This document shows positions 29,211 through 63,691 of a DNA stretch of 64,000 bases, in pieces. The position numbers and the translations under genes were made by a program. Origin of the DNA: a virus; IMG/VR virus record IMGVR_UViG_3300030438_000078, positions 92,994-156,993 of that record. The stretch is one strand, 5' to 3'. The first letter of the stretch is position 1, and each line of letters starts with the position of its first letter. The notes under the pieces were generated by a model. That model ran no database searches. It was not told the origin of the DNA and was given only the letters and a program-made list of their open reading frames with translations.

Positions 29211-29579
29211 CTATTTCTTAATTTTTAATTGTTCTACAGGAATACCAAGTTTATCAGCAATTTCTTGCATAGTAAGTACTACTTCTTTAGATTTTTCCCA
29301 AAGTACTTTACCCCTACTTAATCCACCTAACTCTTCAGAAGTTAAATCATATATACAAATTATTTTATGGGAATAATATTTAATAAAATATTCAATAGCA
29401 CTCCAACTACTTTTATTATAACAAATCAGTCCTAATCTCCCATTTAAAAGAGGAAATACAACATAAGATAATTCTTTATCATTATCTTGAATTTCAATAA
29501 CCATTCCTGGTTTAATTTCTACTCCATTTATTACATATTTTGCCATAATATTTTTTCTTTTATAAGTAAAACCTTTCAA
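29211..29579 (-). CDS. hypothetical protein
   Basis: 122-aa ORF. Confidence 0.4.
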   Translation of the reverse strand: MKGFTYKRKNIMAKYVINGVEIKPGMVIEIQDNDKELSYVVFPLLNGRLGLICYNKSSWSAIEYFIKYYSHKIICIYDLTSEELGGLSRGKVLWEKSKEVVLTMQEIADKLGIPVEQLKIKK

Positions 29580-30319: not shown

Positions 30320-30326
30320 TAATAAG

Positions 30327-30398
30327 TTGCTCTAGGAGAGTACGATTCTCCAATTTCAGAACCAAAACCTGACGTGTTGCCGATTACACCATAGAGCA
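30327..30398 (-). tRNA. tRNA-Gln (anticodon UUG)
   Basis: Acceptor TGCTCTA/TAGAGCA, D-arm GTGT-AATCGGCA-ACAC, anticodon arm TCAGG-TTTTGGT-TCTGA, T-arm GGAGA-ATCGTAC-TCTCC; 72 nt. Confidence 0.7.
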
Positions 30399-31007: not shown

Positions 31008-32978
31008 TTACTTCACTTCTTCAAAAGTATCAGTAGTTTCTTCTTTAGTTTCAAGCTTCTTTCCTTTTACAATATTCTGAACAGTTTCCTTGAACGGAAT
31101 AGATTCAAGAGTTTTCAACATCGGGCTTACACTTTCAGCAATACTTGTCATAAACTGAGCAGCAGTATTCTCGTTACCATATACAGTAACATTACCCAGA
31201 TTGATATGTTCATACATCTTAGCAGAAGCTGCGGCAATTTCCTTATACTGGTCAACAGTCTTATACTGTACAACCATGTCTGGTGTCATACCATTAGCAA
31301 TCATTTCCTTAACTGCCAATGCAGGAGCCATTTCAATAGCCTGGACTTTATCAGCTTCAGCCATCAAAGAAGCTCTTTTACCTTCAGCTTCAGCAAGAAG
31401 TTTCTTACGAGTACCTTCAGCTTCTGCTTCCATCTGCAATTTAGTAGCATCTGCTTTAGCTTCTGCTTCTTTCAGAATCCTAGCTGCTTCAGCTTCTGCT
31501 TCAAGAATTGCTTTCTGTTTTACTGCTTCTGCTTCAATAGTAACTTTCTCTTTTTCCTTCTGAGCAGGAACAATAGTCTCAGCATGCAATTTAGCTTCCA
31601 CAGCAAGAGCCGTAGCTTCATTTACTTCAAGCTGTTTTTCTTGTTTTGTTTTCTCAATCTGCATCTGAGCTTCTACTTTAGAAGTACCTGCAACTTTCTC
31701 AGCTTCTGCTGCTGCTTGTGCAGCTTCTCCTTTAGCTTTAGATACCTCAATAGTAGCCATATGTTCTGCTACACCAGCTGATTTACCAGCTTCTGCTGCT
31801 TTCTGTCTCTTTTCAGATTCATACTGTGCAACAGCCGCTTCCTGCTCATTAATTGCTTTCTGAGTTTCAGCCACCTGTTTCTGTTTAGCTTGTGCTACAC
31901 GAGTTTCCTTTTCAGCCATAGCTTCTGCTTTTCTAGCATCTGCCTCAGCTTGAGAACGTGCAATATTAGCTACTGCTTCAGCTTGAGATTTAGCTTGTTT
32001 AGAATCAGCTTCAGATTTAGCTTGTGCGATATTAGCTACTTTTTCAGATTCTGCTTGAGCTTTAGCTGTTTCTGCCTGAGTTTTAGATTTAGCTACATTA
32101 GCTTCCTGTTCAGCTTGCTGAGCAGCAATACCTGAAAGTTTATTCTTTTCTGCTTCTGCTAACTTGATTTCCTTTTCCTGGTTAATTTCTGCAACTTTTA
32201 CTTCTTTCTCTTGTTTAGTCTGAGCAACCTGAGTTTCTCTTTCCTTTTCAGCATTAGTTACAGCAATTTGACGTTCCTTTTCAGTTTCTGCAATCTGAAT
32301 ATCTCCTTTCTTCTTTTCTTCTGCAATATCTGCTTGTGCCTGAGCTTGAGCTTTAGTTGCAGCTTTCTGACCAAGATTCTTGATATAGTTTGCATCATCT
32401 GAGATATCAGCATTATTAATATTAATAATACTAAATCCCACTTTATTCAATTCAGTTTCAATATTCTCTTTTGCTTTACCTAAGAACTTAATTCTATCAG
32501 CATTAATTTCTTCAATAGTCATTGTTGCCATCAAAGATCTTACTTCACCAATAAGAATATCCTGAATCTGACCAGCAATTTCTTTAGTATTAGCAGTTAA
32601 GAATCTACTTGCAGCATTTTGCATCAAAGTTTGAGATGTTCCAATACCAGTAGTTAATGTTACAGGAATAGTAACTTTAATCATCTGGCTAGATACACCG
32701 CTTACAGAAGTCTGAATCTGAATAGGTTTCAAACTCATCTTTCTCCAATCCTGAATAATAGGCATTACGAAAGTACCCCCACCATGAATAATTTTAGAAG
32801 GCAAGATTACTTCTTCCTTCTTTCCAGTTGTCGGATTAGTTACTGTCTTTTTACCAGCTTTACCAAACACAACCAAAATTTCATCAGAAGCACATTTGCG
32901 ATAACGAGACAAAAGTCCAATGAAAGTGATAACTACCAATACTACAATAATTCCTGCAATAATAAAAGTTGATGTCAT
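31008..32978 (-). CDS. flotillin-like SPFH/band-7 membrane protein
   Basis: N-terminal TM, SPFH-like core, then ~350 aa of E/A/K/Q-rich coiled coil ('AQAQAQADIAEEKKK...AEAEAEAARILKEAEAK'), the architecture of YqiK/FloT flotillins; 656 aa. Confidence 0.65.
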   Translation of the reverse strand: MTSTFIIAGIIVVLVVITFIGLLSRYRKCASDEILVVFGKAGKKTVTNPTTGKKEEVILPSKIIHGGGTFVMPIIQDWRKMSLKPIQIQTSVSGVSSQMIKVTIPVTLTTGIGTSQTLMQNAASRFLTANTKEIAGQIQDILIGEVRSLMATMTIEEINADRIKFLGKAKENIETELNKVGFSIININNADISDDANYIKNLGQKAATKAQAQAQADIAEEKKKGDIQIAETEKERQIAVTNAEKERETQVAQTKQEKEVKVAEINQEKEIKLAEAEKNKLSGIAAQQAEQEANVAKSKTQAETAKAQAESEKVANIAQAKSEADSKQAKSQAEAVANIARSQAEADARKAEAMAEKETRVAQAKQKQVAETQKAINEQEAAVAQYESEKRQKAAEAGKSAGVAEHMATIEVSKAKGEAAQAAAEAEKVAGTSKVEAQMQIEKTKQEKQLEVNEATALAVEAKLHAETIVPAQKEKEKVTIEAEAVKQKAILEAEAEAARILKEAEAKADATKLQMEAEAEGTRKKLLAEAEGKRASLMAEADKVQAIEMAPALAVKEMIANGMTPDMVVQYKTVDQYKEIAAASAKMYEHINLGNVTVYGNENTAAQFMTSIAESVSPMLKTLESIPFKETVQNIVKGKKLETKEETTDTFEEVK

Positions 32979-34574: not shown

Positions 34575-34644
34575 TGTGTTATAGTGGATTCGAACCCACT
34601 ACTTTCTAACATAGTTTGATGTTCTACCATTGAACTAATAACAC
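34575..34644 (-). tRNA. tRNA-like gene, anticodon arm not resolvable by eye
   Basis: Acceptor GTGTTAT/ATAACAC, D-arm GTTC-AATGGTA-GAAC, T-loop GTTCGAAT; only ~20 nt between D- and T-arms so a canonical 17-nt anticodon arm does not fit. Confidence 0.4.
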
Positions 34645-39424: not shown

Positions 39425-39632
39425 ATTGTTCAGTTTTAATTAGTTTTTCAAGTTCTTTTATTTCATTTTCTCTTTCTTTGATATATTGAGGATCAGGTTC
39501 TACTCCATAGAAAGTAGCTCTAGCTTTATATTGGAATATTTCAGCATACTTATCCGCAATTCTATCATGTATTCCCTTTAATTTTTCTACTGTCATAATC
39601 CAAAATATTTGTTGCTCCCCAGCAGGACTCAA
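39408..39632 (-). CDS. hypothetical protein
   Basis: 74-aa ORF; 5' end overlaps the tRNA-like gene at 39614-39694, so the true start may be internal. Confidence 0.3.
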   Translation of the reverse strand: MSPAGEQQIFWIMTVEKLKGIHDRIADKYAEIFQYKARATFYGVEPDPQYIKERENEIKELEKLIKTEQYEKKN

Positions 39633-39694
39633 ACCTGCGACCTACTCGGCACTAATTTCTATACCAAGTGCTCTATCAACTGAGCTATGGAGGA
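39614..39694 (-). tRNA. tRNA-like gene with enlarged (~14-nt) anticodon loop
   Basis: Canonical D-arm (GCTC-AGTTGATA-GAGC) and T-arm (GCAGG-TTTGAGT-CCTGC), acceptor TCCTCCA/TGGGGAG; anticodon stem CTTGG/CCGAG encloses 'TATAGAAATTAGTG' instead of 7 nt; 81 nt. Confidence 0.45.
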
Positions 39695-41231: not shown

Positions 41232-41486
41232 TCAGAGGATTTTTAAAAGTATCCCCACCGCTGTGGGGATTTTACAAATGTCCACCAAGAACAGACCTTC
41301 CTGTGCCACTATACTTTGAATTGTTTCACAACAACTACATAGTCTCTGGGCATACCCATTATGGTCTTGTAACAATTTAAATATAACATGACAACTTTTT
41401 TGTTTCACAACAATTTTATAAGATGGGTTCTCTATTCTGGAATCGAACCAGATCTTCCCACACTTGTGGTAGTGCCCATACACCAT
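41232..41486 (-). CDS. hypothetical Cys-containing protein
   Basis: 84-aa ORF. Confidence 0.35.
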   Translation of the reverse strand: MVYGHYHKCGKIWFDSRIENPSYKIVVKQKSCHVIFKLLQDHNGYAQRLCSCCETIQSIVAQEGLFLVDICKIPTAVGILLKIL

Positions 41487-41493
41487 TAGAGAA
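41428..41493 (-). ncRNA. truncated tRNA-like element without an anticodon loop
   Basis: Acceptor TTCTCTA/TAGAGAA, T-arm TCTGG-TTCGATT-CCAGA, short D-hairpin, and a CCAC-AAGT-GTGG tetraloop hairpin where the anticodon arm should be; ~66 nt. Confidence 0.3.
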
Positions 41494-43807: not shown

Positions 43808-43881
43808 TGGGGTATGGTCGTAATTGGTTAACGGGTCTGACTCTAAATCAGAAATTCTGGGTTCGAGTCCCAGTACCCCGA
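43808..43881 (+). tRNA. amber suppressor tRNA (anticodon CUA, reads UAG)
   Basis: Acceptor TGGGGTA/TACCCCG, D-loop TAATTGGTTAA, anticodon arm TCTGA-CTCTAAA-TCAGA with CTA at 43843-43845, variable AATT, T-arm CTGGG-TTCGAGT-CCCAG; 74 nt. Confidence 0.8.
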
Positions 43882-43900
43882 CAATTAAAACATTAATAAT

Positions 43901-44910: not shown

Positions 44911-46464
44911 TTACAGAATATTCTTGCCAAAATAGACAGGAACAGTTTTATCATCCATTAGTAATCTTTTCTTTTGTTTTAAAGGGGTATATAACTTTTT
45001 AGTAATTCCACTAGGGGAGTACTCAAACTAATTATATTCAGAATTCAATAATGCATCTTTAAGCTCCTATGAAGTTACAGTTGTCTGATTTCCTTGATAA
45101 ATATCTTCATAATCGGGTCTTGTATCATAAAATCCCTTCTTATTTAAAGGTCTACTACTTACACCCATAGTATAGGGATTCATTCCAATTATTTCTGCTT
45201 GCTATTCTGGAAGTAACTATACCTTACCTCTAAATCCACTAGAAGTGTTACCAAAATTTAAATGACTTCTTCCCATTTGTGTAACATCTATTTCACCAGG
45301 AAAACCTCTATAATCAGTAGCCTTTCTAACCCCAAAAGTCTTTGTAGGAAATTCATAAAGTACTTTTATTCCGATAGGTTCTGACGTACCTAATCCAGAA
45401 AATTCTTCCCAAGGAGTAGTGTGGGATATAAATAGTTTCTCACCCTCTATATTAGTACTAGGTAATTTACTTGATCTTGCCATTCTATAATAATTATCCC
45501 CATTTCTAGTAGATAAAAAATTAGACCATTCAGAATTTCTAAAAGCCCGTGTAGCTTTATCTATATTCTTAGGAGAATTATCTAAATTTCTACTTAATAT
45601 TTTAGCTCTAGCCCATTTATTACCAGCTTTAGCTAATCCATATTCAGCTACTCTACCTAATCCTTTAAATACAGGGTTTAAAGCAACTCCTTCTACATAT
45701 AACTAACCTATAGGGTCTGTACCGCTCATACTTATATTAGTAGTAGAGGTTTGTTCTTTACCATTAGCATCTTTCCATCTTACTACTTCAGAATTTGGTT
45801 GCTAACTTCTAGCATTAGCAACCTGTAATCTATTATATGCTTGAGGGTCTTCTTTCTTCATCTATTCTACTACTTGAGAATATTGAGGACCTTTATATTC
45901 TAATTTACCCCAAGCTGTTTGTTTCTTAGGAATTAATATCCCACCCTTTTTAAACTCTTTATTTTTATTTCCTTGCTCTATATACTACTTTAAGAAATTT
46001 CTCTGATTCTCATTTATCGGTATATAAACAGTATTCATTCCTTTATGTAATCTTTTTGTAAGTTCTGGTCGTAGGTCTAATTTATATTTATGTTCTGCTG
46101 GGTAATAAATAGAATCTCCTTTTATCATTGGTATCCCATTTAATTCCTCTAATACAAAATCTTGAACATCTCCAGGAGTAGTAAACAAAAAAGAATTTAG
46201 TTTTTTATTAAAGGTCTTTTCTAAAGCGCATCTAGTTGCATCACTACAGTTATTAGTAACTAGATTATAATCTTTATGTTTTCCGCCTTTATCTACTGTG
46301 TAGGGTCTATATCTATCATCCTTTGACCCAGTTATAGTTAAACTACTATGTCCAGTAAGTGGATATCTACTAACAAAAGGATAATAAGTATTTAGAACTG
46401 CATATTTAGAAGATTCATCTAATAACTCGTTTCCTTCCTAATATTTTGGTATTAATTTACTCAT
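44911..46464 (-). CDS. TAG-recoded protein (517 codons) with papain-like thiol-peptidase-type 'NNC' motif (PPPDE/LRAT-like)
   Basis: One frame from ATG 46464 to TAA 44911 contains about 10 in-frame TAGs and no TAA/TGA; it fuses ORF-track pieces 45985..46188 and 45217..45483; 'HKDYNLVTNNCSDATRCALEKTF' resembles the Cys box of PPPDE/NlpC-P60-like peptidases. Confidence 0.5.
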
Positions 46465-46669
46465 ATGTATTTATCTTTATATATTTAAGCCAACTAAATG
46501 GTTTTCTATTATCTAAGTATTCTAAGTTATCGTCATTGTTATGTGCTTCTTCTTCTAAGGAAATTTCATGATAACAATTCTTTTGTTTATCTTTAATTCT
46601 GAATAATCTAATTAATAAATACTCTAATCCATACCATATATAAAATCCAATAAATAAAGTTTCTATCAT
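46457..46669 (-). CDS. small membrane protein
   Basis: 70 aa; N-terminal TM 'LFIGFYIWYGLEYLLIRLF'; ends TAA; overlaps next gene start by 8 nt. Confidence 0.4.
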   Translation of the reverse strand: MIETLFIGFYIWYGLEYLLIRLFRIKDKQKNCYHEISLEEEAHNNDDNLEYLDNRKPFSWLKYIKINTYE

Positions 46670-47258: not shown

Positions 47259-47469
47259 ATTTCCAAATTCCTGTTACACTATCTATACCTAATAGTCCCA
47301 TGCAACACCATAGAACTGTATCTATCATTAATGGAGCTTGTATAACTTCAACTGTACAATATACCAATACTAAAAGACATATTATCCAACCAGTTAATCC
47401 GCAAACTCTCTTAGAAGATACTCCTGATTGAGAAATTACTACTTCCTTCAAAAATTGTATAAATCTCAT
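47218..47469 (-). CDS. membrane protein (holin/spanin-like)
   Basis: 83 aa, two TM helices, basic C-terminus; ATG overlaps TGA of upstream gene (ATGA). Confidence 0.4.
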   Translation of the reverse strand: MRFIQFLKEVVISQSGVSSKRVCGLTGWIICLLVLVYCTVEVIQAPLMIDTVLWCCMGLLGIDSVTGIWKFGNKDGNNKKLDK

Positions 47470-48485
47470 CTCTTAAAATATTGATTTATAACATCAGAGT
47501 AATTATCCACCTACTAAAAAGCATCATTTAATCCTCCGTTAATATATATATTATACATATCCTATATGGATTTAGAACTATTTAATCTACTTTTAAATTT
47601 ATTAGGCATTTTGTAGTAAGCATATAACATTCTATCTTCTGAACCTGGATTATTCTTAAAGAAAGCATGAACTGAATTTCCATACTTTTCTATTAATAGT
47701 TTTTTAGCATCGTTCAATTTCATATTAATAATCTCAGCTGCATCATTCAAAGATAAATTATCTTTTCCCCATACTTTCATTTTATTATCAAACGGTTTTT
47801 TATAAGTTAATCCAGTAATATTTAATCTTTGTTTGACGTCGTCTAAATTATCCAATCCAAAGTTTCCTAGTTTTTTATAAGATGTATTTCCAGGATTTTT
47901 AGTGGGATTTCGGGCAATTACAACACTATCTGGATCGACTGTTAATTTAGAATTAAGCATATTAGTAGCATAGCCTTCGTTTAACAGTACATTTAATAAT
48001 CCCCTCTTATGGGCAACATTAGAGAGTACTCCATTTAACTATTTTCTGTTTTTATCTAAAAATGAATATTTCCAATTTTTATCTATACCATTTTTATCTG
48101 TACCCCATTTAGTATTTACAATTACTTTATAATTAGGAGAGGTAACTTCTCCACCATCTTCATGTTTTTTAATTAAACCATAAGTTCCTTTCTTTAATCT
48201 TTTAATTGTAATCCATCCATTATCTAATATTGACCTATGTCCATCTGGCTTATGAATCTTCGAACCTTCCTCATGTTTCCATTTAGCAGCATTTCTAGCA
48301 AAGTTAGCCCTCTTCTTTTGTAATGGAGTAGTCTTAGGATTTTTTAATACAGCTCTTGCATGCTCCTATACACTTCTTCCTGCCTTTTTAGCAGAAGCTG
48401 TAAACTTTCCTCTGTTCTTCTTTTTAATATGAATACCAGAACCTTTCTTATATATCTAGCATCCAATAAATTCTAAATTGTTCAT
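47466..48485 (-). CDS. TAG-recoded basic protein (340 codons), candidate lysis/virion protein
   Basis: ATG 48485 to TGA 47466 with in-frame TAGs at 48456, 48366, 48039, 47562, 47514 and 47511; extends ORF-track piece 47562..47960 in both directions; very K/R-rich N-terminal third. Confidence 0.45.
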
Positions 48486-48730
48486 AAATTAATTAATTTC
48501 GCATGAATCTTTCTGTGACAATTACTACATACACAAATACACTTATCTAATTCTATTTTAAATAATCTAGTTGGTAAGTATTTAACAGACTGAGATATAT
48601 TATATACTTTATCATGTAAATGATGAACCTCTAAACAACAATATGCTGTTTCTCCACAAATACAACATTTATCTTTTTTATCCTTTAGTAATAATTTATT
48701 ACCATTAATTACTTCTGAAGGCTGTTTCAT
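48482..48730 (-). CDS. HNH endonuclease
   Basis: 'CCICGETAYCCLEVHHLHDK...CSNCHRKIH' HNH zinc-finger motif; 82 aa; ATGA overlap with downstream gene. Confidence 0.6.
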   Translation of the reverse strand: MKQPSEVINGNKLLLKDKKDKCCICGETAYCCLEVHHLHDKVYNISQSVKYLPTRLFKIELDKCICVCSNCHRKIHAKLINL

Positions 48731-51168: not shown

Positions 51169-52461
51169 ATGGCATTAAATTTAGACCCAGAATTTGTACA
51201 TTATGTTTAGGGTATTTATGGAAACGCTGATTTAGATGGTAAAGTAATTAAATAGTTATATTAGACATGGAAGAGTAATCCTTAGTTTATTATAAATGCT
51301 TATAATTAGAAAAATCAAGTTCAGCAAAATAAACCTTAGCTAGCTTCAATGGCTAATAATAATATTAGATAGATTAATAAGCCAGAAGTAGCACAGGATG
51401 ATTTAAGTGGAATTACTAATTTTGGAAACGCATTTAAAATAGCTAGTTAGAGAAATTTAAGTTAGTTTAAATGGAAGGGAACTAAAGCTAATCCTAGTGG
51501 ATTATTTGCAGTTGAATTTGCAACAAAAAAATAGTCTACATCTAAGCCTACTAAGCCTACTAAACCTTCTCCTACTTCAAATAATTCTAACTAGTCAAGT
51601 CCTTCTTCTACTCAAACATGGTCAAGTTTACTTGAAAAAGCTCCGACTCTTGATTTAATAGAATCAGTAAAAGGAAAATCATTTTGGGATGGAACCTTTT
51701 TTCCAGTAGATAAATCTTTAGTTAAAAAGGCTCCTTCTCCTGTAACTAATAGTTCCTCTACTTTGAAACAAGATGTTCCAAGTAGTCCATTGCCAAGAAA
51801 TAGAGAAGCCGAATCATAGGCAAGACAATCAGCTTTTGAAAGAATGACATACTAGAATTGGAGAAGTAATAGACCCTCTGAAAATAGTTATTTTAGAGCA
51901 GGTTATAATTCTATAACTCCATCTTTTTATTAGTAGGGAGGTACTATGTAGCAACAATAGTCTTCTCAAGAATAGGAATTACAAAAAGCTTTCTTAGCAT
52001 ATTTAATTTAGGATGCAGCATAGCAAGGTATTCAATTACAATCAGAACAAGATTTACAAGCATATGCTTAGCAACTTGGAGAAGAAGGTATAAAAGCTAA
52101 GTATCAAGAATTTATGCAGAAAATGCAAGGAGGAACAATGGCTAAACTTGGGACAAAGTTAGAATATATTAAAAAACTAAAAGGAGTATGTCCAGAAGGC
52201 TATGAAATGTCCTATTACAAGGTAGGAGGAAGAATCTGCAAAACTTGTTAGAAAATGCATAAAATGGAAGCTGCATAGAAAGGGAAGAAACTAAATGCAG
52301 TTCAATAGTTTAAGAAAGATATGAAAACTAAAGATGAAGCATCTAGAGATTCTATAGCTATCAATAAATGGCAGGATTAGGATACAATGGCTAAGAAAGG
52401 AAATAAAGGAAACTTTAAAAAAGGAACATGGGTTCCAGATAGAAAGAAATATAAAAAATGA
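51169..52461 (+). CDS. Gln(TAG)-rich hypothetical protein (431 codons)
   Basis: Continuous protein-like frame with more than 25 in-frame TAGs, ends TGA; Ser/Pro/Thr-rich linker and C-terminal Cys motif 'CPEGYEMSYYKVGGRICKTC'. Confidence 0.5.
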
Positions 52462-52494
52462 GATTTAATTATCTTATATAAATGGGTATGATTT

Positions 52495-53055
52495 ATGAAT
52501 GTGTTTAGTTTTAATTCATTAAATAAAAGTTTAGAAATTAATGAACCTGAAATATTATTGGTAAGAGAGTTTAAAGCTTTAGTGGATAGGGATTTTACTT
52601 CTATGAAAGAAAAAGTTACTAGAGAACTCACTTATATCTTTCTAGCAATAGATTGGAAAAGTCCCTATAACCAATATTCTGAATAGGAAAGACATGAAGA
52701 AGCTTTAAATGATTCTGGATTAACAGAATCTGAATTTAATGATCCTATATTTAGAGAAGCATGTAGAAAATATAGGGCTTTATAGGATTCTAATAAATCA
52801 ATTAAGTTATTAGAAGCTGCTAAAAGAGCAGCTGATTAGTTTATAGATTATTTCGATACCATAGTAGACTTAAATGAAAGGGATAATAATGGAAAGCCTG
52901 TTTTCTAGGCAGAAAAAGTAATGAAAGAAATGGCTTAGTTACATAAGGTACATGAAGAATTAATTACCCTAGAAAATGAAGTTAAGAAGGAGCTTACTGA
53001 ACAGTCTACTATTAGAGGTGGTGGAGAAGACGGTTTTGATCCAGGAGATATTTAA
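52495..53055 (+). CDS. hypothetical protein upstream of terminase (candidate small terminase subunit)
   Basis: 187 codons, 5 in-frame TAGs, ends TAA three nt before the terL ATG. Confidence 0.45.
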
Positions 53056-53057
53056 TT

Positions 53058-55208
53058 ATGGGAAGAAAGAAAAAAATACTACCTGAAGAATTATAGATTA
53101 TAGTAGATGAAGTAAGAAATAAATAGGAATAGGAAGATGCTCAAGAAGCTAGAGAACTAGTATAGAAGTTAAGACAGGAAAGGTCTAATGATAAAACATA
53201 TTGGGATGTAAAAAAAGAAGAAACAATAGAAGTATTTGACCCAACATTATCTTATGAGTTAACTGGATATAGACCTATAGATGAAACTCATGGATTAGAC
53301 TTTAATCCAGAATGGTTCACAGAAACTAGGGAGGTTTATAAGAAAACTGGAAAATATTGTCCGTATCTAAAAGATAGTAAGAGATATAATGAATTTTGGA
53401 AAGAGCAATATAGAAGATGTAAATACGGAATGACAGTTAATGGTTACACTATTACTGGAGATAATTACTTCTTTTTGAATTTCTATTAGTTACCGGCTAT
53501 TGATACTAACTAGGCTTCTGGTTCTGGAACTAGAGATGATTTTCCAATATTTTTCGCATCTCATTATATGTTCTTCCATTATTTACAAATGGCAAGAGTA
53601 CTTCATAAGCATGCAGCTTTGATGAAAGCTCGCTCGATAGGTTTTAGTGAAATAAATGCTTCATTATCAGCAAGAATGTATTCTGTGATTAGAAAAAGTA
53701 GAGTGATGATTACTTGTTATAATGATACCTTCTTAAAGGGCACATTTAATAAGTTTGATCATGCTTTAACTTTTTTAAATACATGCACTAATGGAGGATT
53801 CTTTAAAAGAAGAATTACAGATTAGGATCTAAAAAAGAAATCTGGAACTTAGATAAAAATAGATGGACAGTTTGAAGATACTGGATTTCAATCAGAAGTA
53901 CTAGGAATTAATGGAGCTAAACCATCTAATATTCGTGGTGACCGTGTTGATTTATTAATATTTGATGAAGCAGGTTCTTGGCCAGGTTTAACTACTGCAG
54001 TTGTACAAGGACAAGAATTATGTGAAGTATAGGGTGTTCCTAGAGGTACTATGTTATTTGGTGGAACTGGGGGCGATATGGGGGCACCTTTGGAAGGTCT
54101 TAAAAAGATATATTATAATCCTAGGTCATTTAAAATACTTCCATTTAGACATAATTGGACACAAGATGGTACTACTATAGAAAGCGGATTCTTTATACCT
54201 TACTTTTTACAATCTCTTAATCCAGAATTTATGGATAATAGAGGAGTTTGTAAAATTGGAGAATATAAAAAATTCTTACAAGAAGAACGCGACAATCTAT
54301 TAGCTGTTCCAGAAGAATATTTAAAGAAATGTGCTGAACGTTGCTGGAATGCAGAAGAAGCATTTAATCTTGAAGGCGTTAATAAATTTAATAAAATAAA
54401 CATAGCTAATTAGTTAGCTACTATAAGACTTCATAAACAAGGTCCAAGACCTGAAGTAGGAGTAATAGATTACTATTATAAAAATAGCCAACATACTCCA
54501 GAAAATATAGCAGGTTTTAAATGGATGCCTAATCCTAATGGTAAAGTAAAAATATTAGAACACCCAGTATGGTCAGATTTATATAAAGAATAGATAGAGA
54601 AATTAAGAAAGAAAGCCGAAGAAAATGATGAAGAATTTACTGTTCCTGTATATAAAGAAATGAAAGACTTGTATGTTGCAGGAATAGACGGTATTGATAT
54701 TGGTGCAAATTAGACTTCTAAAGAAACTAGAGATCCTTCAGATTTCTGCATTACTATTAAGAAGAGAGCTTTTGGACTTAATGATCCTCAATATGTAGCA
54801 ATATATAAAGATAGACCTGGAAATATTAGAGAAGCTTATAAAATTGCTATGTGCTTAGCTAGATATTTTAACTGTAAAATAAATATAGAAGCAACTCGTA
54901 TGAGTATGGTTACTTGGGCTAGAGAAAATAAATGTTTACAATACTTTATGAAACGTCCAAGAGCTACACTAACAGATATTAAAAATGGTACTACTAAGTA
55001 GTACGGAACTCCTGCAACTAAAACTATTATTGAACAGCATACAGATTTAACAGCTGACTTTGTTGAAGATTACTGCCATACTATATGGTTTGAAGAAATG
55101 CTTGATTAGCTTACTGGTTATAATGATGAAAATAAAGGTAAGTTCGATATTATAGCATCAATGGGTATCTTAGTTATGCCCCTATATATAGTAATATATA
55201 TAAGATAA
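53058..55208 (+). CDS. terL: terminase large subunit
   Basis: 717 codons with about 14 in-frame TAGs; ATPase Walker B 'RVDLLIFDEAGSWP' followed by a nuclease-domain region 'LYVAGIDGIDIGAN'; size and order (immediately before the portal-like gene) fit TerL. Confidence 0.7.
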
Positions 55209-55495
55209 TTCCGCAAAATCGGTGAAGACTAAGATGATTAAATTTATTGAAGAACATTAAATAGAAAATTTAATAAATTTAATCATTATGTTAATACCGA
55301 GGTAACTTAATTAATCGTTGAGTACCGTAACGCGTAGGAGATGAGCGTTATAGAGAGCAATAATTCTCCCAAGAGTGTGGAACATCCTATAGTGGATGAA
55401 AATGTACGCTGACCCGTCTGATGATTAAATCAGAATATAGTAAGGAGGAAACTCCCGGAATTATTGAATAAAAAATCAATAAGATAACAAAAGTG

Positions 55496-55714
55496 ATGAC
55501 AGAATTAGCAGATTAGGAATTGTCTGGAAGACAACCTTCTTTAGTTGTTAAAGATGTTGAAGAGTTTCAAGATTTTGGATATTATAGAGATGAAAGGGGT
55601 TATATAAGACATGGTGTAATACCTAAGAGAGAACCTCAACTAATTAATATAAATATAGAAAAATATGATGACCCATACAGAATTGAAACAAGCGATCCTA
55701 GATTATATACGTGA
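55496..55714 (+). CDS. hypothetical protein
   Basis: 73 codons, TAG at codon 7, ends TGA. Confidence 0.35.
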
Positions 55715-55967
55715 ATTATATGAAATGGAATATATAGGAGGTTTAGAAATAACTGACCTAGATCCAGTAGGTTATAAAATTTCTTTTAATTTTGATAAAT
55801 CTGAAATGCCTTTAGTTATTATAGCAGATTTACCAGATGAAGAATTTTTACCTTTTATAAAAGAAGAATTAAGAAGTAGAAAACTTCATAGAGTTAAATA
55901 TTTTGGAGCTACTAAACTTCCTCCAGAACCTATAACAGTTTGTAATGAAAGAAAAAGAACTTATTGA
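55665..55967 (+). CDS. hypothetical protein
   Basis: 100-aa ORF overlapping both neighbours. Confidence 0.35.
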   Translation: MMTHTELKQAILDYIRELYEMEYIGGLEITDLDPVGYKISFNFDKSEMPLVIIADLPDEEFLPFIKEELRSRKLHRVKYFGATKLPPEPITVCNERKRTY

Positions 55968-58128
55968 CAAAACTAATGCTGCTATTTCTGAGTTGGTATA
56001 TGACAAGTATGAGTTACAAAAAGCTTATAATTATTACAATGGTAAAAGAGACCCAGAATAGTATCGTTACTTAGAAGAAAATTTTGGAATAGGAAGTCCT
56101 ACATCAGTTGAGTTTACACCTCTATTAAAAAAGCATGTAGATGCTTTAGTTGGAGAATATTTAGGAACTCCTATACTTCCAAAAATTTCTTGTAAAGACT
56201 CTGAGACTATATCTAGTATTACTAGAGAAAAATAGTTAAAAATAATTGAAGGGATAGTTAAATTTTTAAAAGATCATTTAAATAATTCTATTCTCAGATT
56301 TATAGATGGAAAAGATATAACAGATAAAGCTATTAAAGAATAGCTAGACAAATTAATTCAAGACATTGACCAATCATTTATTTCTCAATATGAAATTGCT
56401 GCACAGCACGTTGTGTATTACATAATGCAATCTAGAGAAACAGATTTAATTACTAAACTAAGATAGTTATTAACAGATTTACTTATTACTGGATATACTT
56501 TCTTTAGAGTTAAACAATCTTTAAGTGAAAATAATATTGAAATAGAAGTACTAAATCCATTAAATACTTTTATAGATAGAAATCCAGATTCTCCATATGT
56601 TAGAAATTCTTATAGAGCGGTTATTAGACAATGGTTAACTAAGAGTTAGATATTGGCTAAGTATGGCAAGGAACTATCTAAAGAAGATTTAAAACAATTA
56701 AAAGATGATTGGTATGATAGTGACGGTGCTGCTGTTTATAGAAGAGAGTTCACAGCTTCTAATACATGTACAGTAGTAAATGATGATTGGAATAATGACA
56801 CAATACCTGGTTATCCAGATAATGAATATAGTACAAAACGATTCTAGCTTATCCCGGTGTATGAAGTAGAATGGATTGAAACAGATGATAACTTTATAAT
56901 GTAGAGATATACTACTATAAGAATAGGAGAAAATATTTATATACTTAGAGGTCTAGATAAAAATGTTATTAGGTCAAAAGATAATCCTAGCTTCTGTGGA
57001 CTTTCAGTAAATGGAGTATATTTTTTAAATAGATCTAAATAGCCTTATTCTCTAATATTAAAATGTGCTCATTTGTAGGATAGATATGACTTATTAAACT
57101 ATTATAGAGACTCTTTAGTAGCTAATAGTGGTTCTGCTGGTGTTATTATGGATATGTCCCTATTGCCTAAGAACTTAGGAGTAAAATGGCCTGAAAGAGT
57201 AGAAAAATGGTTAGCATATAAGAAAGCAGGTATAATGTGGGTAGATAGTTCTCAAGAGGGCAGAAATGATAATGGTAATGCTCCATTAAATACTATCTTT
57301 AACGGATTTGATGATACTTTAAAAGCTCAAGCTATTCAAGCAATAGAGTTAGCAATCTAGGGAGTAGAACAAACTACCTCTTCAATTACTGGAGTATTTA
57401 GAGAACGTCTTAATGGTATAGAACAAAGAGATGCCGTAACTAATATTAAATAGGGAGTAGCTAACTCGTATATTGTTACTAAACCATATTTCCAACAAAT
57501 GGATTTAATAACCTGTGAAATCTTACTAGATAGTTTAAATCAAGCTAAAATAACTTATAAGAAAAAAGGTTTAACTGGAACTATTATTTTGGGAGATAAA
57601 TATTAGTAGATATTTACTGCACTTCCAGAGCATTTTACTTTAACTGATTATGATATTCATGTAATTTCTAGTACACAAGTAATGGAAGATATGTAGACTA
57701 TAAAATCTATAATTCCAGAATTTGTAAAAAGTAATTAGATATCTCCAGATATTATATTAGAAGCTCTAACTTCTAAAAGTATGACTGATTTAAAATATAA
57801 AGTTAAAAAAGCTATGTAGGCTCAGAAAGAAGAGAATAATTAGTTATAGCAGCTATAGCAAAAACTAGAAGAAACTACATAGCAAGCTCAATAGTTATAG
57901 TAGGAATTATAGAAAGCATAGTAGAAGATACAGTAGCTTGATGAAACCAAACTTAACTTAGAATAGCATAAGATTCAGCTAGAATATTAGGTTAATTGGT
58001 TTAAAGCTCAAACTGATAGGTCTTATAGAGATAGATAGATGGATATAGAAGAAAAAAGAACTGAAGTAGAATTAGCTCAGTTAAAAGATGGGAATCCATA
58101 TAATGATAAAATTAGACAATTAATCTAA
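55945..58128 (+). CDS. portal-like protein (728 codons) with TAG-encoded Gln-rich C-terminal tail
   Basis: Large gene directly after terL; dozens of in-frame TAGs; C-terminal 40 codons contain about 13 TAGs ('QAQKEENNQLQQLQQKLEETTQQAQQLQQELQKAQQKIQQL'); portal assignment rests on size and synteny only. Confidence 0.5.
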
Positions 58129-58865
58129 TGGCAGTAATAGGAACAAAATTATATAATAAAGAATATCAACAAATATATCCAGAATCAGATGCTTCAGTAA
58201 TTATTTGTAATGGTTCTGGAAATAAATCTTATGTAGAAGAGGATATTAAAAAGATATATAAATAGATATCTGATCTTACTGGGGCCACTGAAACTATAAA
58301 TAATATTATAGTTAAAGTACATTATTTACCTTCTAATATTTCTAATGAATCTGATATTAAATTATCTGAGAAATAGTGGTCAGATACATTTGAATTACCT
58401 AGTGAGGAGAATCCCTATGTTTGGAAAAGAACTTTATTTACATATGAAGGAGCAGAAGATGGATAGGGAACTACTATATATGAAATAGTTGCTACAGACA
58501 CTTCAACTATTATTTAGACAATCTATACTAGAACAGAAGGGATTACACCAGTAATAGAATATAAACAAAAAGTAGATGAAAAAGGAAATCCTTTATATAT
58601 AGACTCAGATGGAAGAGAAACTACTGAAGTAACTTCTACTAAAGCTTATGATTATAATTATTACTGGGATGGTTCAAAGGCTAATGGTATAAATAATCTT
58701 CCTCCTACTCCACCAGAATAGACTTATACTTGGACAGATTACCCTCAAGATATTAGTCTATCTTTTACATCTGTATTTATGTCTAGAAGAATTAGATAGG
58801 GAGGAAAGTGGGGACCCTTATCTACACCAGCACAATATGGTCAGTGGCCAGTAGGTACTAATTAA
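58128..58865 (+). CDS. hypothetical structural protein
   Basis: 246 codons, 8 TAGs, ATG overlaps portal TAA (TAATG). Confidence 0.45.
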
Positions 58866-58876
58866 ATTATATAATT

Positions 58877-59605
58877 ATGGAATTTAGTGTTGATATACAT
58901 ACTCAAATAAATGGAGAAATAACTATAGAAGATTTCTCTAAAGAATACATGCAGTATATAGATGAAGATGTTGAGGTAGTTACTACTTTTGATTTGTTTA
59001 AATATAGTGAAAGTGCTACATTAAATAGTGTAATCAAATTAGGATTATGCGATGCAGTATTAATAGATGTATTAATTAATAATCATTCTGAAGATTTAGA
59101 TTCATGTACTTTTAAAGTTACAGATGATGGTTATTATGTAATAGACCATATTGTACTACCTAATATGAAATGGTATGAAAACGCTTCTGAAGAATATAAA
59201 AACTACTATGAAACTATCTATGTAACTGATGGAGAAAAGTTATATAAAGAAGTCGAAGAAGAATTAGTAGAATGTACAGTAAAAGAAATATTAGAAAGAA
59301 ATACAGAAGGGACTACTATAAAAAAATGTAAGATAGATGTTATTTTTACAGGCAATATGTAGCAATGTTATATAAACTATTGTAAGAAGATTTTTAATAA
59401 CCTTCTTAATCAATGCTACAAAAAAGAAAATGACTATGATATATATGCCAGAGATTTTATATGGATGACATTAAATATAATAGATTATTTAGTTGGTTTT
59501 AAACAGTTCATGGAAGCTTAGAGAATTATAGAAATGTTCCAATCTTGCGGAGGTTTCTGTAAAAAAGTTACTGAACATAGACAAGTTAGCTGTGGATGCT
59601 CTTAA
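58877..59605 (+). CDS. hypothetical protein
   Basis: 243 codons (ORF-track 58877..59362 extended through two TAGs to TAA 59603-59605); C-terminal part overlaps a second protein-like frame. Confidence 0.4.
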
Positions 59606-59760
59606 AAGAAAAGCAATAATTACTTATAAAAACCTTCTATCTAAAGTAAAGAAAGGTTATAGACCAGATTATAAGGATTTACTAAATTTAATTTGTTTTA
59701 TAAGTCTCCCAGAAAAAATAGATAATTATGATTTTATAAAACAACAACTATTAAATTAGA

Positions 59761-61329
59761 ATGATACAGTCTATCTACACTTCGGTAAATAACGCCGAAT
59801 TAGTTTCGTGTGGTAAAAAAGGTACTCCTATAAAAAGTGAACCAATTCCATTACTAAGAAATAACTTTTTAAGTGAGTATAGAACTGAATTAGAAAAAGC
59901 TAAGGTAAGAAAAAATTTAGGAATTGCTGATGAAGCTAGTTTAATTTGGGGAAATATAGACGGAACTATAGAAGAATAGAAAGATTTAGTTCAATATATA
60001 GAATAGAAATGGGCATATACTTCTGATGTTTCTGAAGATATCTAGACAGTAAAAGATGCTTTAGATTATGCTCTATTTTTTATTGGATAGTATGAAGCTA
60101 ATACAGAAGAAATAGAAGAACTAAATCAAAAAATAGAACAACTTAAATAGTTAATATCACAAACAGAATAGTCTCTTCAAGAAGATATAAACACTAATAC
60201 TGAGAGTATTAATACTATTAATCAAAATATTGAAGAGATAAATAAATAGATAGAAGATATTAATAGTAATATAGAAAATATAGATGTAGATAAAAATATA
60301 TTAAACTGGGTAAAAAATAGTTTAGAAAATTCTAAAACTATAAAATTAGTAGATGATACCACTTTAGAAGTTATTCTGTTAGAATAGGAGGACAATGCTA
60401 TTAAACTTTTGCAATAGCAAGAACTTTCTGAAGGGATGGAACCTTCTGAACATCCCACTGTTCCTGGTTTATATGTTAAAGATTTAGAACCTTTAGTTAC
60501 TAATAATTCATAGAATATAAAAGATATTAGTACTAAAGTAAATTAGAATACTTAGAATATTACCAATATTTAGGAAAATATATCCAGCTTATCTGTATAT
60601 GAAACTGAATTGCCCAATGAAACAGAATCTTCTGTTTTGTAGGGAACTACAGTGGAATAGTTAAAAGGTAAGAATATTAATGAAATTATAGATACACTAT
60701 TATTCCCAACAGTAGTTAGGGATTTAGTTTAGCCTTAGCTATATTATAGTGTTACTCAGAATATTGTAGAAGTAGGTTCCCCTAATATTAATCCAACATT
60801 AGTATTTGTTAAAAATGATGCTGGTAATGAATCTTCTCGAAAAGAAACTATATCTTATAATGAAGAAGAACTAGAGTCATTAGAAACATATTCTTCTATA
60901 GGAGACTATATTTATAAAGGAGTTGTAGAATATGAAGCTGGAGAATACTTAATAGATAATAAAGGTGAGGTTACAAAAATAAGAATTGAAGCAGGTTCTA
61001 TAGAAACATCTACTAAGGTAACAGCAACATATCCTTGGTATGCAGGGAATACTAGTTAGGTACAAAAATAGGCTTTAGTTCCATTTAATTAGCAGACTTA
61101 GGTAATTGAGATTTCTTTAACGGATCAAGCAGTTATTAAACTTCCAGGAAGTAAAACTCAATTAAGTATGTTTAAAGTAAATGGAGGCCTAGGATTCTTA
61201 GATGTAGACTTAACTGGATGGGATATATCTACAGAAAATATTTCTGGATTTACTTATAAAGTTTGGACTAAAAAAGATTCTTATTCAGCAATATTACCAC
61301 ATCAACTTAAATTTACACTTATACAATAA
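59761..61329 (+). CDS. structural protein with coiled-coil/Asn-Ile-rich region (tail-fibre-like)
   Basis: 523 codons, about 25 TAGs, ends TAA overlapping next ATG. Confidence 0.5.
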
Positions 61330-62621
61330 TGGGTTTTACATATACAGGTGATGCTGTGTTAGGAGTGTCTTTATCAGTAGAGACTCCTAAACCTCTGGAT
61401 AGTAGAAGTGTAGTAAATAGTATTCAAGATTTATATACTATTCCAGAGAAATATGCATATGAAGGTATGACCGTTGCAAATAAATCTAATGGAAATCTTT
61501 ATATGCTAGTAGATAAAGCTAATATAGGAGATAAAACAGGATGGAAAGCTTCCTATGAAGCCATACAAATTATTGCTTGTACTGAAGACGAATATAAGGA
61601 ATGGAAAGATAATACAAGTGAAGACTTCTAGCCTATAAATCCAGAGAAATCCTTTCTTCATGAAGATACCTATTATTATATTTATGAAGATAGTCTATCT
61701 GCTGAAACAGAAGATTAGGAATATTTATCAGCAGCTTGGGGTAAACAAATAGAAGAATAGTTAAAAGCTAAAGCATTAAATACTACTGTAGTTGCTTTAC
61801 AATAGAAGGTAGATGCTGATATAAAAAATCTTTCTGATAATTATACTACTACTTAGTAGTTATAGGAATAGTATTATAATAGAACAGAAATAAATGAAAA
61901 GTTTTTAACTAAAGAAGATGCTAATAATACTTATGCCACTAAGGAATCCTTAACTGAATTATCAGATTAGATAGCAGAAGAATATGTAACTAAAGAGGAT
62001 TTAAGAGGAGACTCTCCAGAAACTGGTGACGATGATTTTATTTTCGTAACATAGAAAAAATATTAGGAAGATAAAGATGCCCAAGCATTAAATTTTGAAA
62101 CTTAGAATTTAACTACAAAAGATACTAAAACTTCTTCCATAATTATTTAGAAAATCGAAGAAAAAGAAATATCTTAGGAAGAAGGAGAACCTATTATATA
62201 GGAAGAAGTAGTTAGCTAGAATGTAATAACTTCTGAAAATAATAAAGTTCTAATAGATAATAAATAGGTAGCTCTAAGCGAAGAAGTACCTAAGATAGTT
62301 TGTTTACCATAGAATGAATATGATGATATGGTGGAACAAGGAGAAACAGAAGATGATACTTATTATTATACATATGATAAAGAATAGGGAATAGATACTG
62401 GTTATGTTACTCCAGAATATCTAAATTAGAGTTATTATACTAAATATTAGGTAGATTAGCTTATTAAATAGGCTATTGCCGAAGTAACATCTAAAATATT
62501 TCCATTAGATATAGATTCCGAGATTTCTCAAGTATAGGAAGAAGTACTAAATATAGATTTAAAAGCTGTAAGTATAGAAGGAGAATTGTTAAAGTTTAAT
62601 TATGGGAGTGATTTACGTTAA
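61329..62621 (+). CDS. acidic hypothetical structural protein
   Basis: 431 codons, more than 25 TAGs. Confidence 0.5.
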
Positions 62622-62793
62622 TGGTGGATTTAAAAAAGCGAAATTACCAGTTGATTTAAAAGATTCCTCTGTAAATATTGGAGGAAATCAAGGATTAGAT
62701 ATTTCTGTGGAAGATGATGGGATTTTAGTAATTACTTCACAAAATATAGAACTAGATAAGGTAGTAGAAAATGAAATTTTAAATATTATATAA
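62602..62793 (+). CDS. hypothetical small protein
   Basis: 63-aa ORF overlapping the previous gene's 3' end. Confidence 0.3.
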   Translation: MGVIYVNGGFKKAKLPVDLKDSSVNIGGNQGLDISVEDDGILVITSQNIELDKVVENEILNII

Positions 62794-62794
62794 A

Positions 62795-63691
62795 ATGGCA
62801 GCAATTAAGCAAATAAAAGTAGGTGATGTAACTTATGATATAAAAGCTAAGTAGGATATAGATGGAAATGATATAGCTACTACTTATGTTAAAAAAGACG
62901 GAGTAAAAGTTTTAAGTACAGAAGACTTTACTACTAAATTAAAAAATAAACTAGATGGAATTGCTGAAGGTGCAAATAATTATACACATCCTTCTAATTC
63001 TGGTAATAAGCATATTCCAACTGGGGGAAGTAAGGGGAAAATATTAGTCTGGAAAGCAGATGGAGAAGCTTAGTGGGGAGACGATAAAGATACCACTCCA
63101 GCTAAAGTAACTACAGACGCAGATGGCTTAATGAGTAAAGAAGATAAAGCTAAATTAGACGGTGTTGCCGCAAACGCTAATAACTATTCTCATCCTACTG
63201 GTAATGGAAATAATCACATTCCACAAGGCGGAGCTGAAGGCTAGTTTTTAGGATATTCTGCAGCAGGAACTGCAAAATGGGTAAATGCTCCTACTTTTTC
63301 TATAAGTACTGCTACTGATACAAAATTAGGCGGAATAAAAATAGGCTATACTTAGAGTAGTAAAAATTATCCTATTGTATTAGATAGTGGTGGTAAAGCT
63401 TATGTAACTGTTCCTTGGACTGATACAGTTTATACACACCCAAATACTGCTGGTAACAAGCATATTCCAACAGGAGGTAGCCCTGGATAGATATTAGCAT
63501 TTGCTTCTGATGGAACAGCAAAATGGTAGAATACTTATTCAGCAGCCACTGATTCTACTTTGGGAGTAGTTAAACAAGGAACAGCTGTAAAAGATGCAAC
63601 TTCTGGAGTAAGTGCAACATCAGAAAATGTAGCAACTTAGTTAAATGCTCTTTTAGCTTCTTTAAGAACAGCAGGAATTATAGCATCATAA
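62795..63691 (+). CDS. tail-fibre-like protein with three 'N-Y-(T/S)-HP-x3-GN-x-HIP-x-GG' repeats
   Basis: 299 codons with 8 TAGs; repeats 'NYTHPSNSGNKHIPTGGSKGKILVWKADGEAQW', 'NYSHPTGNGNNHIPQGGAEGQFLGYSAAGTAKW', 'THPNTAGNKHIPTGGSPGQILAFASDGTAKW'. Confidence 0.5.

What the first reader, a model, noticed from the sequence alone, without database searches (positions are those of the whole stretch)
57830..57960. Dense TAG cluster encoding a poly-Gln coiled tail at the C-terminus of the portal-like protein
Within about 120 nt there are about 13 TAG codons (for example 'tag tta tag cag cta tag caa ... caa tag tta tag tag gaa tta tag'). If TAG=Gln this gives 'QLQQLQQKLEETTQQAQQLQQELQKAQQKIQQL'. Using the recoded codon almost exclusively for a run of one amino acid is striking. 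It would make synthesis of this tail strictly dependent on suppressor-tRNA abundance, a possible timing or dosage gate on portal assembly.
Basis: seen in the sequence. Interest (0 to 1): 0.5.

Follow-up and report, generated by a model that had tools for sequence, protein, structure and literature searches.

The report
Gln-rich portal barrel in TAG-recoded phage
The dense run of TAG "stop" codons is real, but it is simply the glutamine-rich helical barrel at the end of a crAss-like phage portal protein, in a phage whose late genes all read TAG as glutamine, so it is an ordinary by-product of a known recoding and not a special control switch.

Summary
The cluster is real. Window 57830-57960 holds 12 TAG trinucleotides, 11 of them in frame, and it is the densest TAG spot in the 64 kb.

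It lies inside a 727-aa portal gene (55945-58128, 30 in-frame TAGs). The gene belongs to a late block where TAG supplies 55% of all Gln codons. A tRNA with anticodon CUA sits at 43808-43882.

TAG=Gln is well supported. TAG positions align to Gln in standard-code relatives as often as CAA/CAG positions do, and TAG and CAA/CAG swap freely between close relatives.

The segment is not a poly-Gln tail. It is a heptad-patterned helix (residues ~613-714) that aligns to the solved alpha-helical C-terminal barrel of the PhicrAss001 portal gp20. It is conserved and Gln-rich in every relative, including standard-code ones with no TAG at all.

The "almost exclusive TAG use" claim fails. Only 11 of 16 Gln codons in the segment are TAG, which is not significantly above background (p = 0.14 and 0.32).

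The tail-specific gate idea is not supported. Sixteen TAGs lie upstream, starting at codon 39. TAG positions shuffle among relatives. Most recoded relatives use less TAG in the barrel than elsewhere.

Verdict: a known phenomenon (code-15 late-gene recoding) meeting a Gln-rich domain. Low interest.

The parts
55945..58128 (+). Portal protein gene, 727 codons plus a TAA stop, with 30 in-frame TAG codons read as Gln
   Evidence: Open only if TAG is sense. phrog_6547 portal E=3.4e-51 over aa 23-704, with a weak P22_portal match. PDB profile hit to PhicrAss001 gp20 7qog at E=2.4e-21. Thousands of full-length homologs of about 720 aa.
57781..58086 (+). C-terminal alpha-helical 'barrel' segment of the portal (aa ~613-714), Gln-rich and heptad-patterned
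   Evidence: AF2 predicts one continuous helix over 613-714, the best-scoring part of the model (pLDDT 62-84). Profile positions 610-674 align to gp20 residues 672-731, which lie in the solved barrel 672-739. Leu/Ile/Val fall in one a/d heptad register. The segment is conserved in all relatives.
57830..57960 (+). The reported TAG cluster: 11 in-frame TAGs and 5 CAA/CAG among 44 codons (aa 629-672)
43808..43882 (+). tRNA with anticodon CUA (amber suppressor). ARAGORN labels it 'Pyl' only because of the anticodon
   Evidence: ARAGORN. Rfam tRNA at 54 bits. Normal cloverleaf with U1.G72, G2-C71, G3-C70 and A73.
30326..30398 (-). Phage tRNA-Gln(UUG), which reads CAA/CAG
   Evidence: ARAGORN and Rfam.
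51169..63691 (+). Late (packaging/structural) gene block. All nine ORFs carry in-frame TAG (135 TAG against 109 CAA/CAG) and none terminates with TAG
   Evidence: The terminase is phrog_6681 at 1e-63.

Best explanation
The window is part of a crAss-like (most likely Zeta-type) gut phage. Its late genes are written in genetic code 15, where TAG means glutamine and is decoded by the phage's own tRNA(CUA).

The flagged segment encodes the long C-terminal alpha-helical barrel of the portal protein. In the dodecamer this helix projects into the capsid, as solved for PhicrAss001 gp20 and P22. The helix is intrinsically Gln-rich in the whole family: about 13-25 Gln in 77 residues, whatever the genetic code.

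TAG supplies about half of all Gln codons in this phage's late genes. A Gln-rich stretch therefore automatically shows up as a dense TAG cluster.

Dependence on the suppressor tRNA is a property of the entire late block, and of the portal from codon 39 onward. It is not a property of the tail. The cluster itself has no separate regulatory role.

Shown here: coding status, portal identity, TAG behaving as Gln, conservation of the tail, and lack of tail-specific TAG enrichment.
Inferred: barrel assembly as a 12-mer, the timing of suppressor expression, and the charging of the tRNA with Gln.
For: (1) The late block is open only with TAG as sense. There are 135 TAG against 109 CAA/CAG, and the early genes have 0 in-frame TAG.
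(2) A tRNA(CUA) is present.
(3) Window TAGs align to Gln in standard-code relatives 15/30 times (L001) and 11/30 (L002). CAA/CAG-encoded Gln aligns to Gln 17/28 and 12/27 times, and Gln is by far the commonest partner.
(4) Against an 89%-identical relative (L086), 16 TAGs are shared, 11 TAG sites are CAA there, 2 are CAG, and 12 CAA sites are TAG there. That is free synonymous exchange.
(5) All 80+ relatives keep the tail and the C-terminal DGNPYNDK motif. Standard-code members have 13-23 tail Gln with no TAG.
(6) The tail aligns to the solved gp20 barrel, which is itself Gln-rich. AF2 predicts a helix over 613-714, and there is a heptad register.
(7) The TAG share is 11/16 in the cluster against 19/43 elsewhere in the gene (p=0.14) and 55% block-wide (p=0.32). 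TAG choice does not rise with local Gln density in the late genes.
(8) The literature already describes TAG->Gln recoding of late genes, portal included, in crAss-like phages, with proteomic proof in two of them (PMC7886860; PMC9523058; Borges et al.).
Against: - The window and its two closest sequenced relatives all show a tail TAG share at or above the rest of the gene (0.65 vs 0.43, 0.75 vs 0.61, 0.57 vs 0.54). Nearly all other recoded lineages show the opposite. A clade-specific bias is therefore not excluded, though it is not significant and the three genomes are not independent.
- The amino acid carried by the tRNA(CUA) is not shown directly. BLAST of the tRNA against E. coli genomes and phages found nothing, and it is not especially close to the phage tRNA-Gln(UUG).
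- The AF2 model is poor outside the tail (mean pLDDT 43.5).
Confidence: 0.85

Rival explanations
1. The TAG run is selected as a tail-specific timing or dosage gate. The barrel is completed only when the suppressor tRNA is abundant, which delays or limits functional portal.
For: It is the densest TAG cluster in the window. The window clade (window, L084, L086) keeps 10-12 TAGs in this stretch, with a tail TAG share at or above the rest of the gene. Borges et al. propose that strongly TAG-biased genes amplify a translation block.
Against: Sixteen TAGs precede the cluster, from codon 39 on, so a shortage of suppressor already blocks the protein long before the tail. The enrichment is not significant. 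TAG positions are not conserved, even at 89% identity. Standard-code relatives keep the same tail without any TAG. Across the other recoded lineages the tail is relatively depleted in TAG (Mantel-Haenszel OR 0.46). The portal was not among the four TAG-biased families found in crAss-like phages.
Confidence: 0.07
2. TAG is decoded as something other than Gln (for example pyrrolysine, as the ARAGORN label suggests, or Glu/Lys/Tyr/Leu). The tail would then not be Gln-rich.
For: ARAGORN names the tRNA 'Pyl'. Some TAG sites align to Glu, Lys or Asn in relatives. The tRNA's identity could not be fixed by similarity.
Against: Gln is the dominant aligned residue, and the substitution spectrum equals that of CAA/CAG-encoded Gln. 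Frequent TAG<->CAA/CAG exchanges occur at conserved Gln columns. The 'Pyl' label is only the default name for a CUA anticodon. Metaproteomics shows TAG=Gln in other crAss-like phages (PMC9523058). A CUA anticodon is one base away from the Gln anticodon CUG, as in the E. coli supE suppressor (established knowledge).
Confidence: 0.03
3. The TAGs are genuine stops. The portal would end at 57841, and the downstream stretch would be non-coding or a separate gene.
For: Under the standard code the frame closes repeatedly here.
Against: Standard-code relatives encode the homologous sequence through to the same C-terminus with no stop. The same frame also has 16 earlier TAGs inside conserved portal domains. 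PHROG and PDB profile matches run through the region.
Confidence: 0.01

Closest known systems
Portal protein gp20 of Bacteroides phage PhicrAss001 (PDB 7qog and related entries; Bayfield et al. 2023, PMC10172136)
   Same: Best solved relative by sequence profile (E=2.4e-21). It has the same domain order, and its C-terminal alpha-helical barrel (residues 672-739, about 80 A long) aligns with the window's TAG-rich segment. The barrel is Gln-rich in both.
   Different: The two are only distantly related: about 23% identity to crAss-like portals by tblastn. In the window's portal, 30 of 58 Gln codons are TAG.
P22 portal gp1 C-terminal barrel (Pfam P22_portal, PF16510)
   Same: A long C-terminal helical barrel. 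The crassvirus paper explicitly likens the gp20 barrel to that of P22. Many database homologs of the window's portal carry a precomputed PF16510 hit.
   Different: The window protein scores below Pfam's cutoff (17.6 bits against 26.1). The relationship to P22 is at the fold/superfamily level only.
Genetic code 15 (TAG->Gln) recoding of late genes in crAss-like and other gut phages (Ivanova 2014; Yutin 2021, PMC7886860; Borges 2021/2022; Peters 2022, PMC9523058)
   Same: Early replication genes use the standard code. Late structural and packaging genes are full of in-frame TAG. The phage encodes a tRNA(CUA). Close relatives switch code. Relatives have 145-192 kb genomes, and introns sit in core genes.
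   Different: Nothing differs in kind. This lineage's portal happens to place a Gln-rich barrel under a 50-65% TAG share, which gives a visually striking cluster.
E. coli supE (glnV) amber suppressor tRNA-Gln(CUA)
   Same: A tRNA with a CUA anticodon that inserts Gln at UAG. The acceptor stem UGGGGUA/UACCCC resembles that of bacterial tRNA-Gln; this rests on a sequence recalled from memory and aligned, so it is only a lead.
   Different: The window's tRNA is phage-encoded and is used for wholesale reassignment, not for leaky suppression. Its charging was not tested, and no BLAST match to E. coli tRNA genes was found.

Membership tests
Crassvirales-type / P22-like portal with C-terminal helical barrel | Sequence homology to known portal proteins across the wing, stem and crown regions | tested here: met
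   phrog_6547 at 3.4e-51 over aa 23-704. 7qog gp20 at E=2.4e-21 over profile positions 314-674. The Pfam P22_portal match is weak and below cutoff.
Crassvirales-type / P22-like portal with C-terminal helical barrel | A long uninterrupted alpha-helix (60 residues or more) after the crown that aligns with the solved barrel | tested here: met
   AF2 helix 613-714 with pLDDT 62-84. Alignment to gp20 residues 672-731, within the barrel 672-739. Heptad register.
Crassvirales-type / P22-like portal with C-terminal helical barrel | Assembly of twelve such helices into a tube inside the capsid | not testable with these tools
   Needs cryo-EM or a multimer prediction. Only a monomer model was possible.
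Code-15 (TAG->Gln) recoded phage | In-frame TAGs in conserved genes; read-through restores full-length homologs | tested here: met
   All nine late ORFs. The portal is 727 aa, against about 720 aa in its homologs.
Code-15 (TAG->Gln) recoded phage | TAG positions correspond to Gln in standard-code homologs | tested here: met
   15/30 and 11/30 aligned to Gln, the same as for CAA/CAG sites. TAG<->CAA/CAG swaps in close relatives.
Code-15 (TAG->Gln) recoded phage | Phage-encoded suppressor tRNA with anticodon CUA | tested here: met
   43808-43882 on the + strand.
Code-15 (TAG->Gln) recoded phage | Recoding confined mainly to late genes; TAG avoided as a terminator there | tested here: met
   Early genes have 0 in-frame TAG. 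Late genes stop with TAA (8) or TGA (1). The 4 early genes that end in TAG have a backup stop 2-18 codons later.
Code-15 (TAG->Gln) recoded phage | Direct proof that Gln is inserted at TAG (proteomics) | not testable with these tools
   Published for two other crAss-like phages (PMC9523058), not for this one.
Zeta-group crAss-like phages (Yutin 2021) | Genomes of 145-192 kb, code switching at short distances, high intron/intein load, placement in the TerL tree | tested here: inconclusive
   Relatives' contigs reach 175-192 kb. Standard-code and TAG-coded members occur within one portal family. The terminase gene is interrupted by an intron. No reference Zeta sequence was compared and no tree was built.
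Hypothetical 'TAG-cluster translational gate' | TAG share in the segment significantly above the background of the gene or block | tested here: not met
   11/16 against 19/43, p=0.14. Against the 55% block share, p=0.32.
Hypothetical 'TAG-cluster translational gate' | TAG conserved at specific positions, or TAG enrichment of the segment conserved among recoded relatives | tested here: not met
   Positions shuffle. 16 of 19 other lineages have a lower TAG share in the tail than in the rest of the gene; Mantel-Haenszel OR 0.46 outside the window clade.
Hypothetical 'TAG-cluster translational gate' | The segment is the first or limiting point of suppressor dependence in the gene | tested here: not met
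   Sixteen TAGs lie upstream, the first at codon 39.

The most novel reading that the evidence does not exclude
In this particular clade (window, L084, L086) the barrel's run of 10-12 TAG codons could be a selected translational checkpoint. When the suppressor tRNA is limiting or release factor 1 competes, ribosomes would terminate inside the run and release barrel-less portal subunits. The ratio of full-length to truncated portal, and hence head assembly or DNA retention, would then track the progress of the code switch. The opposite trend in most other recoded lineages (barrel relatively depleted in TAG) would then reflect the cost of such runs where suppression is less efficient.
Probability: 0.05. 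Interest if true: 0.5.

Novelty: new member of a known kind. Interest (0 to 1): 0.15.

Why it matters
As it stands, it mostly matters for annotation. Under the standard code this portal falls apart into fragments and the barrel looks non-coding. Under code 15 it is a normal crAss-like portal.

The family-wide comparison gives a clean natural demonstration that TAG is a synonymous Gln codon in these phages. Standard-code, lightly recoded and heavily recoded versions of the same Gln-rich helix exist side by side.

One modest new observation came out of it. In most lineages the Gln-dense barrel lags behind the rest of the gene in adopting TAG. This could reflect mutational path length (CAA needs two steps to reach TAG) or a cost of dense TAG runs.

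If the minority reading were true, it would be a new way of coupling virion assembly to the code switch. The present evidence points away from it.

Tried and rejected
- The suppressor tRNA was run through blastn ('distant' mode) against E. coli genomes and against GenBank phages. No match was found, so its Gln identity could not be shown by similarity.
- Pairwise comparison with the window's other tRNAs was uninformative. tRNA-Gln(UUG) is not its closest relative.
- The accepted run used a shallow alignment (77-99% identity) and gave a poor model overall (pLDDT 43.5). No fold search was attempted; only the tail helix is used.
- Tandem Repeats Finder found no DNA-level repeat underlying the cluster.
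- Megablast of the late block against GenBank phages found only a 284-nt match.
- Pfam scans of the 20 largest early ORFs plus 3 other TAG-containing ORFs found replication and nuclease functions but no release factor or aminoacyl-tRNA synthetase. This is not exhaustive, because ORFs under about 140 aa were not scanned.
- Rfam (E-value mode) gave no group I or group II hit for the insertion in the terminase gene.
- The 'TAGs are real stops / non-coding tail' reading was rejected from homolog conservation.

Full report
**The observation.** The sequence at 57830-57960 contains 12 TAG trinucleotides. Eleven are in the frame of a long ORF (57841, 57847, 57856, 57880, 57892, 57898, 57901, 57910, 57919, 57922, 57934) and one is out of frame. 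A sliding 131-nt count over the 64 kb peaks here at 14, starting near 57836-57840. The window-wide mean is 2.7, the late-block mean is 4.4, and the next best locus has 11. The cluster is therefore real and is the densest in the window. No DNA tandem repeat underlies it.

**Genomic context.** With TAG as a stop, the + strand block from about 51 kb is shattered. With TAG as sense it resolves into nine consecutive ORFs (51169-63691) carrying 135 in-frame TAGs against 109 CAA/CAG, a 55% TAG share. All nine have TAGs early in the ORF, and none uses TAG as its terminator. The minus-strand block (1 to about 44 kb) encodes replication functions: a Toprim primase, a DnaB-like helicase, RNase H and nucleases. 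Its 45 ORFs have no in-frame TAG. Four of them end in TAG and have a backup TAA/TGA 2-18 codons later. A tRNA with anticodon CUA lies at 43808-43882 on the + strand, and a tRNA-Gln(UUG) lies at 30326-30398 on the - strand. This is the published architecture of code-15 recoded crAss-like phages (PMC7886860; Borges et al.).

**The gene.** ORF 55945-58128 (727 aa, 30 TAG) is a portal. It matches phrog_6547 at E=3.4e-51 with the match running to residue 704, and it has a weak, sub-threshold P22_portal hit. It sits next to a large terminase (phrog_6681, 1e-63). A profile built from the family finds the PhicrAss001 portal gp20 (7qog) at E=2.4e-21 as the best solved relative. More than 3300 database proteins match at E<=1e-10. 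The top 120 are 718-727 aa long and sit on contigs up to 191 kb.

**TAG means Gln.** Two GenBank relatives (MT838543 at 61% identity and MT835470 at 54%) and many IMG/VR relatives encode the same portal with no in-frame TAG.
- The window's 30 TAG positions align to Gln in 15 and 11 cases in those two relatives.
- Its 28 CAA/CAG Gln positions align to Gln in 17 and 12 cases, which is the same behaviour.
- A 99%-identical relative has all 30 TAGs at the same positions.
- An 89%-identical relative (L086) shares 16 TAGs. Eleven window TAG sites are CAA there, two are CAG, and 12 window CAA sites are TAG there.

TAG is thus an interchangeable synonymous Gln codon. ARAGORN's 'Pyl' label is only the default name for a CUA anticodon. 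Direct evidence for what charges the tRNA could not be obtained. Proteomic proof of TAG=Gln exists for other crAss-like phages (PMC9523058).

**What the segment encodes.** The profile alignment places family positions 610-674 on gp20 residues 672-731. The cryo-EM paper describes gp20 residues 672-739 as an extended alpha-helical barrel that reaches about 80 A into the capsid and resembles the P22 portal barrel. The gp20 stretch is itself Gln-rich (…AQAQKEQLEAQQQIAAMQQQQKE…). AF2 gave a poor model overall (mean pLDDT 43.5) because the alignment was shallow. It did predict a single helix over residues 613-714, which is the most confident part of the model (pLDDT 62-84). Hydrophobic residues fall in one heptad a/d register. 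All 80+ relatives keep this tail and a terminal DGNPYNDK motif. Their Gln content over the 77 aligned residues is 12-25, including 13-23 in standard-code members encoded purely by CAA/CAG. So the segment is the Gln-rich portal barrel. It is not a poly-Gln tract, and about 55 codons follow it.

**Is TAG specially favoured here?** It is not.
- The segment has 11 TAGs among 16 Gln codons (69%). The rest of the gene has 19/43 (Fisher p=0.14) and the late block 55% (p=0.32).
- At gene level the portal (51% TAG) is unremarkable within the block, where the range is 22-77%.
- Across the late genes, TAG choice does not increase with local Gln density: the share is 0.59 for isolated Gln and 0.48 for dense Gln.
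- In 16 of 19 other recoded lineages the barrel's TAG share is below that of the rest of the gene. The Mantel-Haenszel OR is 0.46 outside the window clade, p about 8e-6, though the lineages are not fully independent.
- Only the window and its two nearest relatives show the reverse, and weakly.
- Borges et al. already ran a per-family test of TAG against CAA/CAG preference in crAss-like phages. They found four biased families (amidase, spanin, tail tube and one of unknown function). The portal was not among them.

**Mechanism.** The dependence on the suppressor tRNA is genuine, but it is block-wide. The portal's first TAG is at codon 39 and 16 TAGs precede the cluster. If the suppressor is short, translation stops long before the barrel.

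By simple arithmetic, which is inference, a per-codon read-through of 0.9 would give only about 4% full-length portal from 30 TAGs. Productive infection therefore requires near-complete reassignment (about 0.97 or higher), and in that regime 11 adjacent TAGs add little. The most likely account is Gln density multiplied by the genome-wide TAG share.

The lag of the barrel in most lineages fits ancestral CAA codons needing two substitutions to reach TAG, by way of CAG. Many non-barrel TAGs instead sit at sites that are Glu, Lys or other residues in relatives and lie one step from TAG. A cost of dense TAG runs is an alternative that I cannot exclude.

**Comparison and novelty.** The closest known entities are the PhicrAss001 gp20 / P22 portal barrel for the protein part and code-15 late-gene recoding for the codon part. 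Placement in the Zeta crAss-like group is likely but was not tested directly. It rests on 175-192 kb relatives, code switching within the family, and an intron in the terminase gene. This is a new member of known kinds, and the interest is low.

**Seen in passing.** The terminase gene is split by a 329-nt ORF-less insertion with a strong RNA fold (55167-55495; z=-8.2). Relatives read straight across the junction. Other items are listed separately.

Noticed in passing
window 53058-55714 (insertion 55167-55495): The large terminase gene is split. Exon 1 ends '...GKFDIIASMG' at 55166 and exon 2 ('MTELADQELSGR...DPRLYT*') runs 55496-55714. Relatives L084 and L086 read 'DIIAAMG-MTELAD' (L086: DIVAAVG-MTELAD) without interruption. 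The 329-nt insert has no ORF and folds at -87 kcal/mol (z=-8.2 against shuffles), but it gives no Rfam group I or II hit. It is probably an ORF-less self-splicing intron.
   Followed up: partly
L084 6280-9780: In an 89%-identical relative the terminase is interrupted at a different, earlier site by an insertion that carries a LAGLIDADG-type ORF. A reverse transcriptase (RVT_1) gene lies downstream of the structural genes, possibly part of a diversity-generating retroelement.
   Followed up: no
portal family, loci L003-L083 (barrel columns = window aa 625-700): Across recoded relatives outside the window's clade, the Gln-rich barrel uses proportionally fewer TAGs than the rest of the portal (Mantel-Haenszel OR 0.46; 16 of 19 lineages). 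The window clade shows the reverse. This may reflect the two-step path CAA->CAG->TAG or a cost of dense TAG runs.
   Followed up: partly
window 14578-15294 (-): An ORF inside the otherwise standard-code early block carries 6 in-frame TAGs. It looks like a free-standing endonuclease-type ORF but has only a weak DUF723 hit. This recalls the recoded intron endonuclease in an early gene reported by Borges et al..
   Followed up: partly
window 44911-46470 (-) and 47466-48488 (-): Two minus-strand ORFs next to the suppressor tRNA carry 9 and 6 in-frame TAGs. Recoding is therefore not confined to the plus-strand late block. Neither has an informative Pfam match.
   Followed up: partly
window 41424-41493 (-); also 34575-34644, 24457-24529, 39615-39694 (-): ARAGORN reports a tRNA-like gene with a 2-base anticodon and an encoded CCA-like end. 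Rfam calls three further tRNAs that ARAGORN missed. These may be atypical or intron-containing tRNAs.
   Followed up: no
window 1584-2594, 8193-9050, 11238-11798, 29211-29546 (-): The four early genes that terminate with TAG each have an in-frame TAA or TGA 2-18 codons downstream. This looks like a backup stop for when the suppressor is active.
   Followed up: no
window 60262-60392 (gene 59761-61329): The second-densest TAG cluster in the window (11 TAGs in 131 nt) lies in another Gln/Glu-rich, coiled-coil-like stretch of a late structural gene. It shows the same Gln-density effect.
   Followed up: no
window 31008-32978 (-): A 656-aa early-block protein has an SPFH/Band 7 domain (E=8e-20) followed by a long Ala/Glu/Lys/Gln-rich repetitive helical region, which is unusual for a phage.
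   Followed up: no
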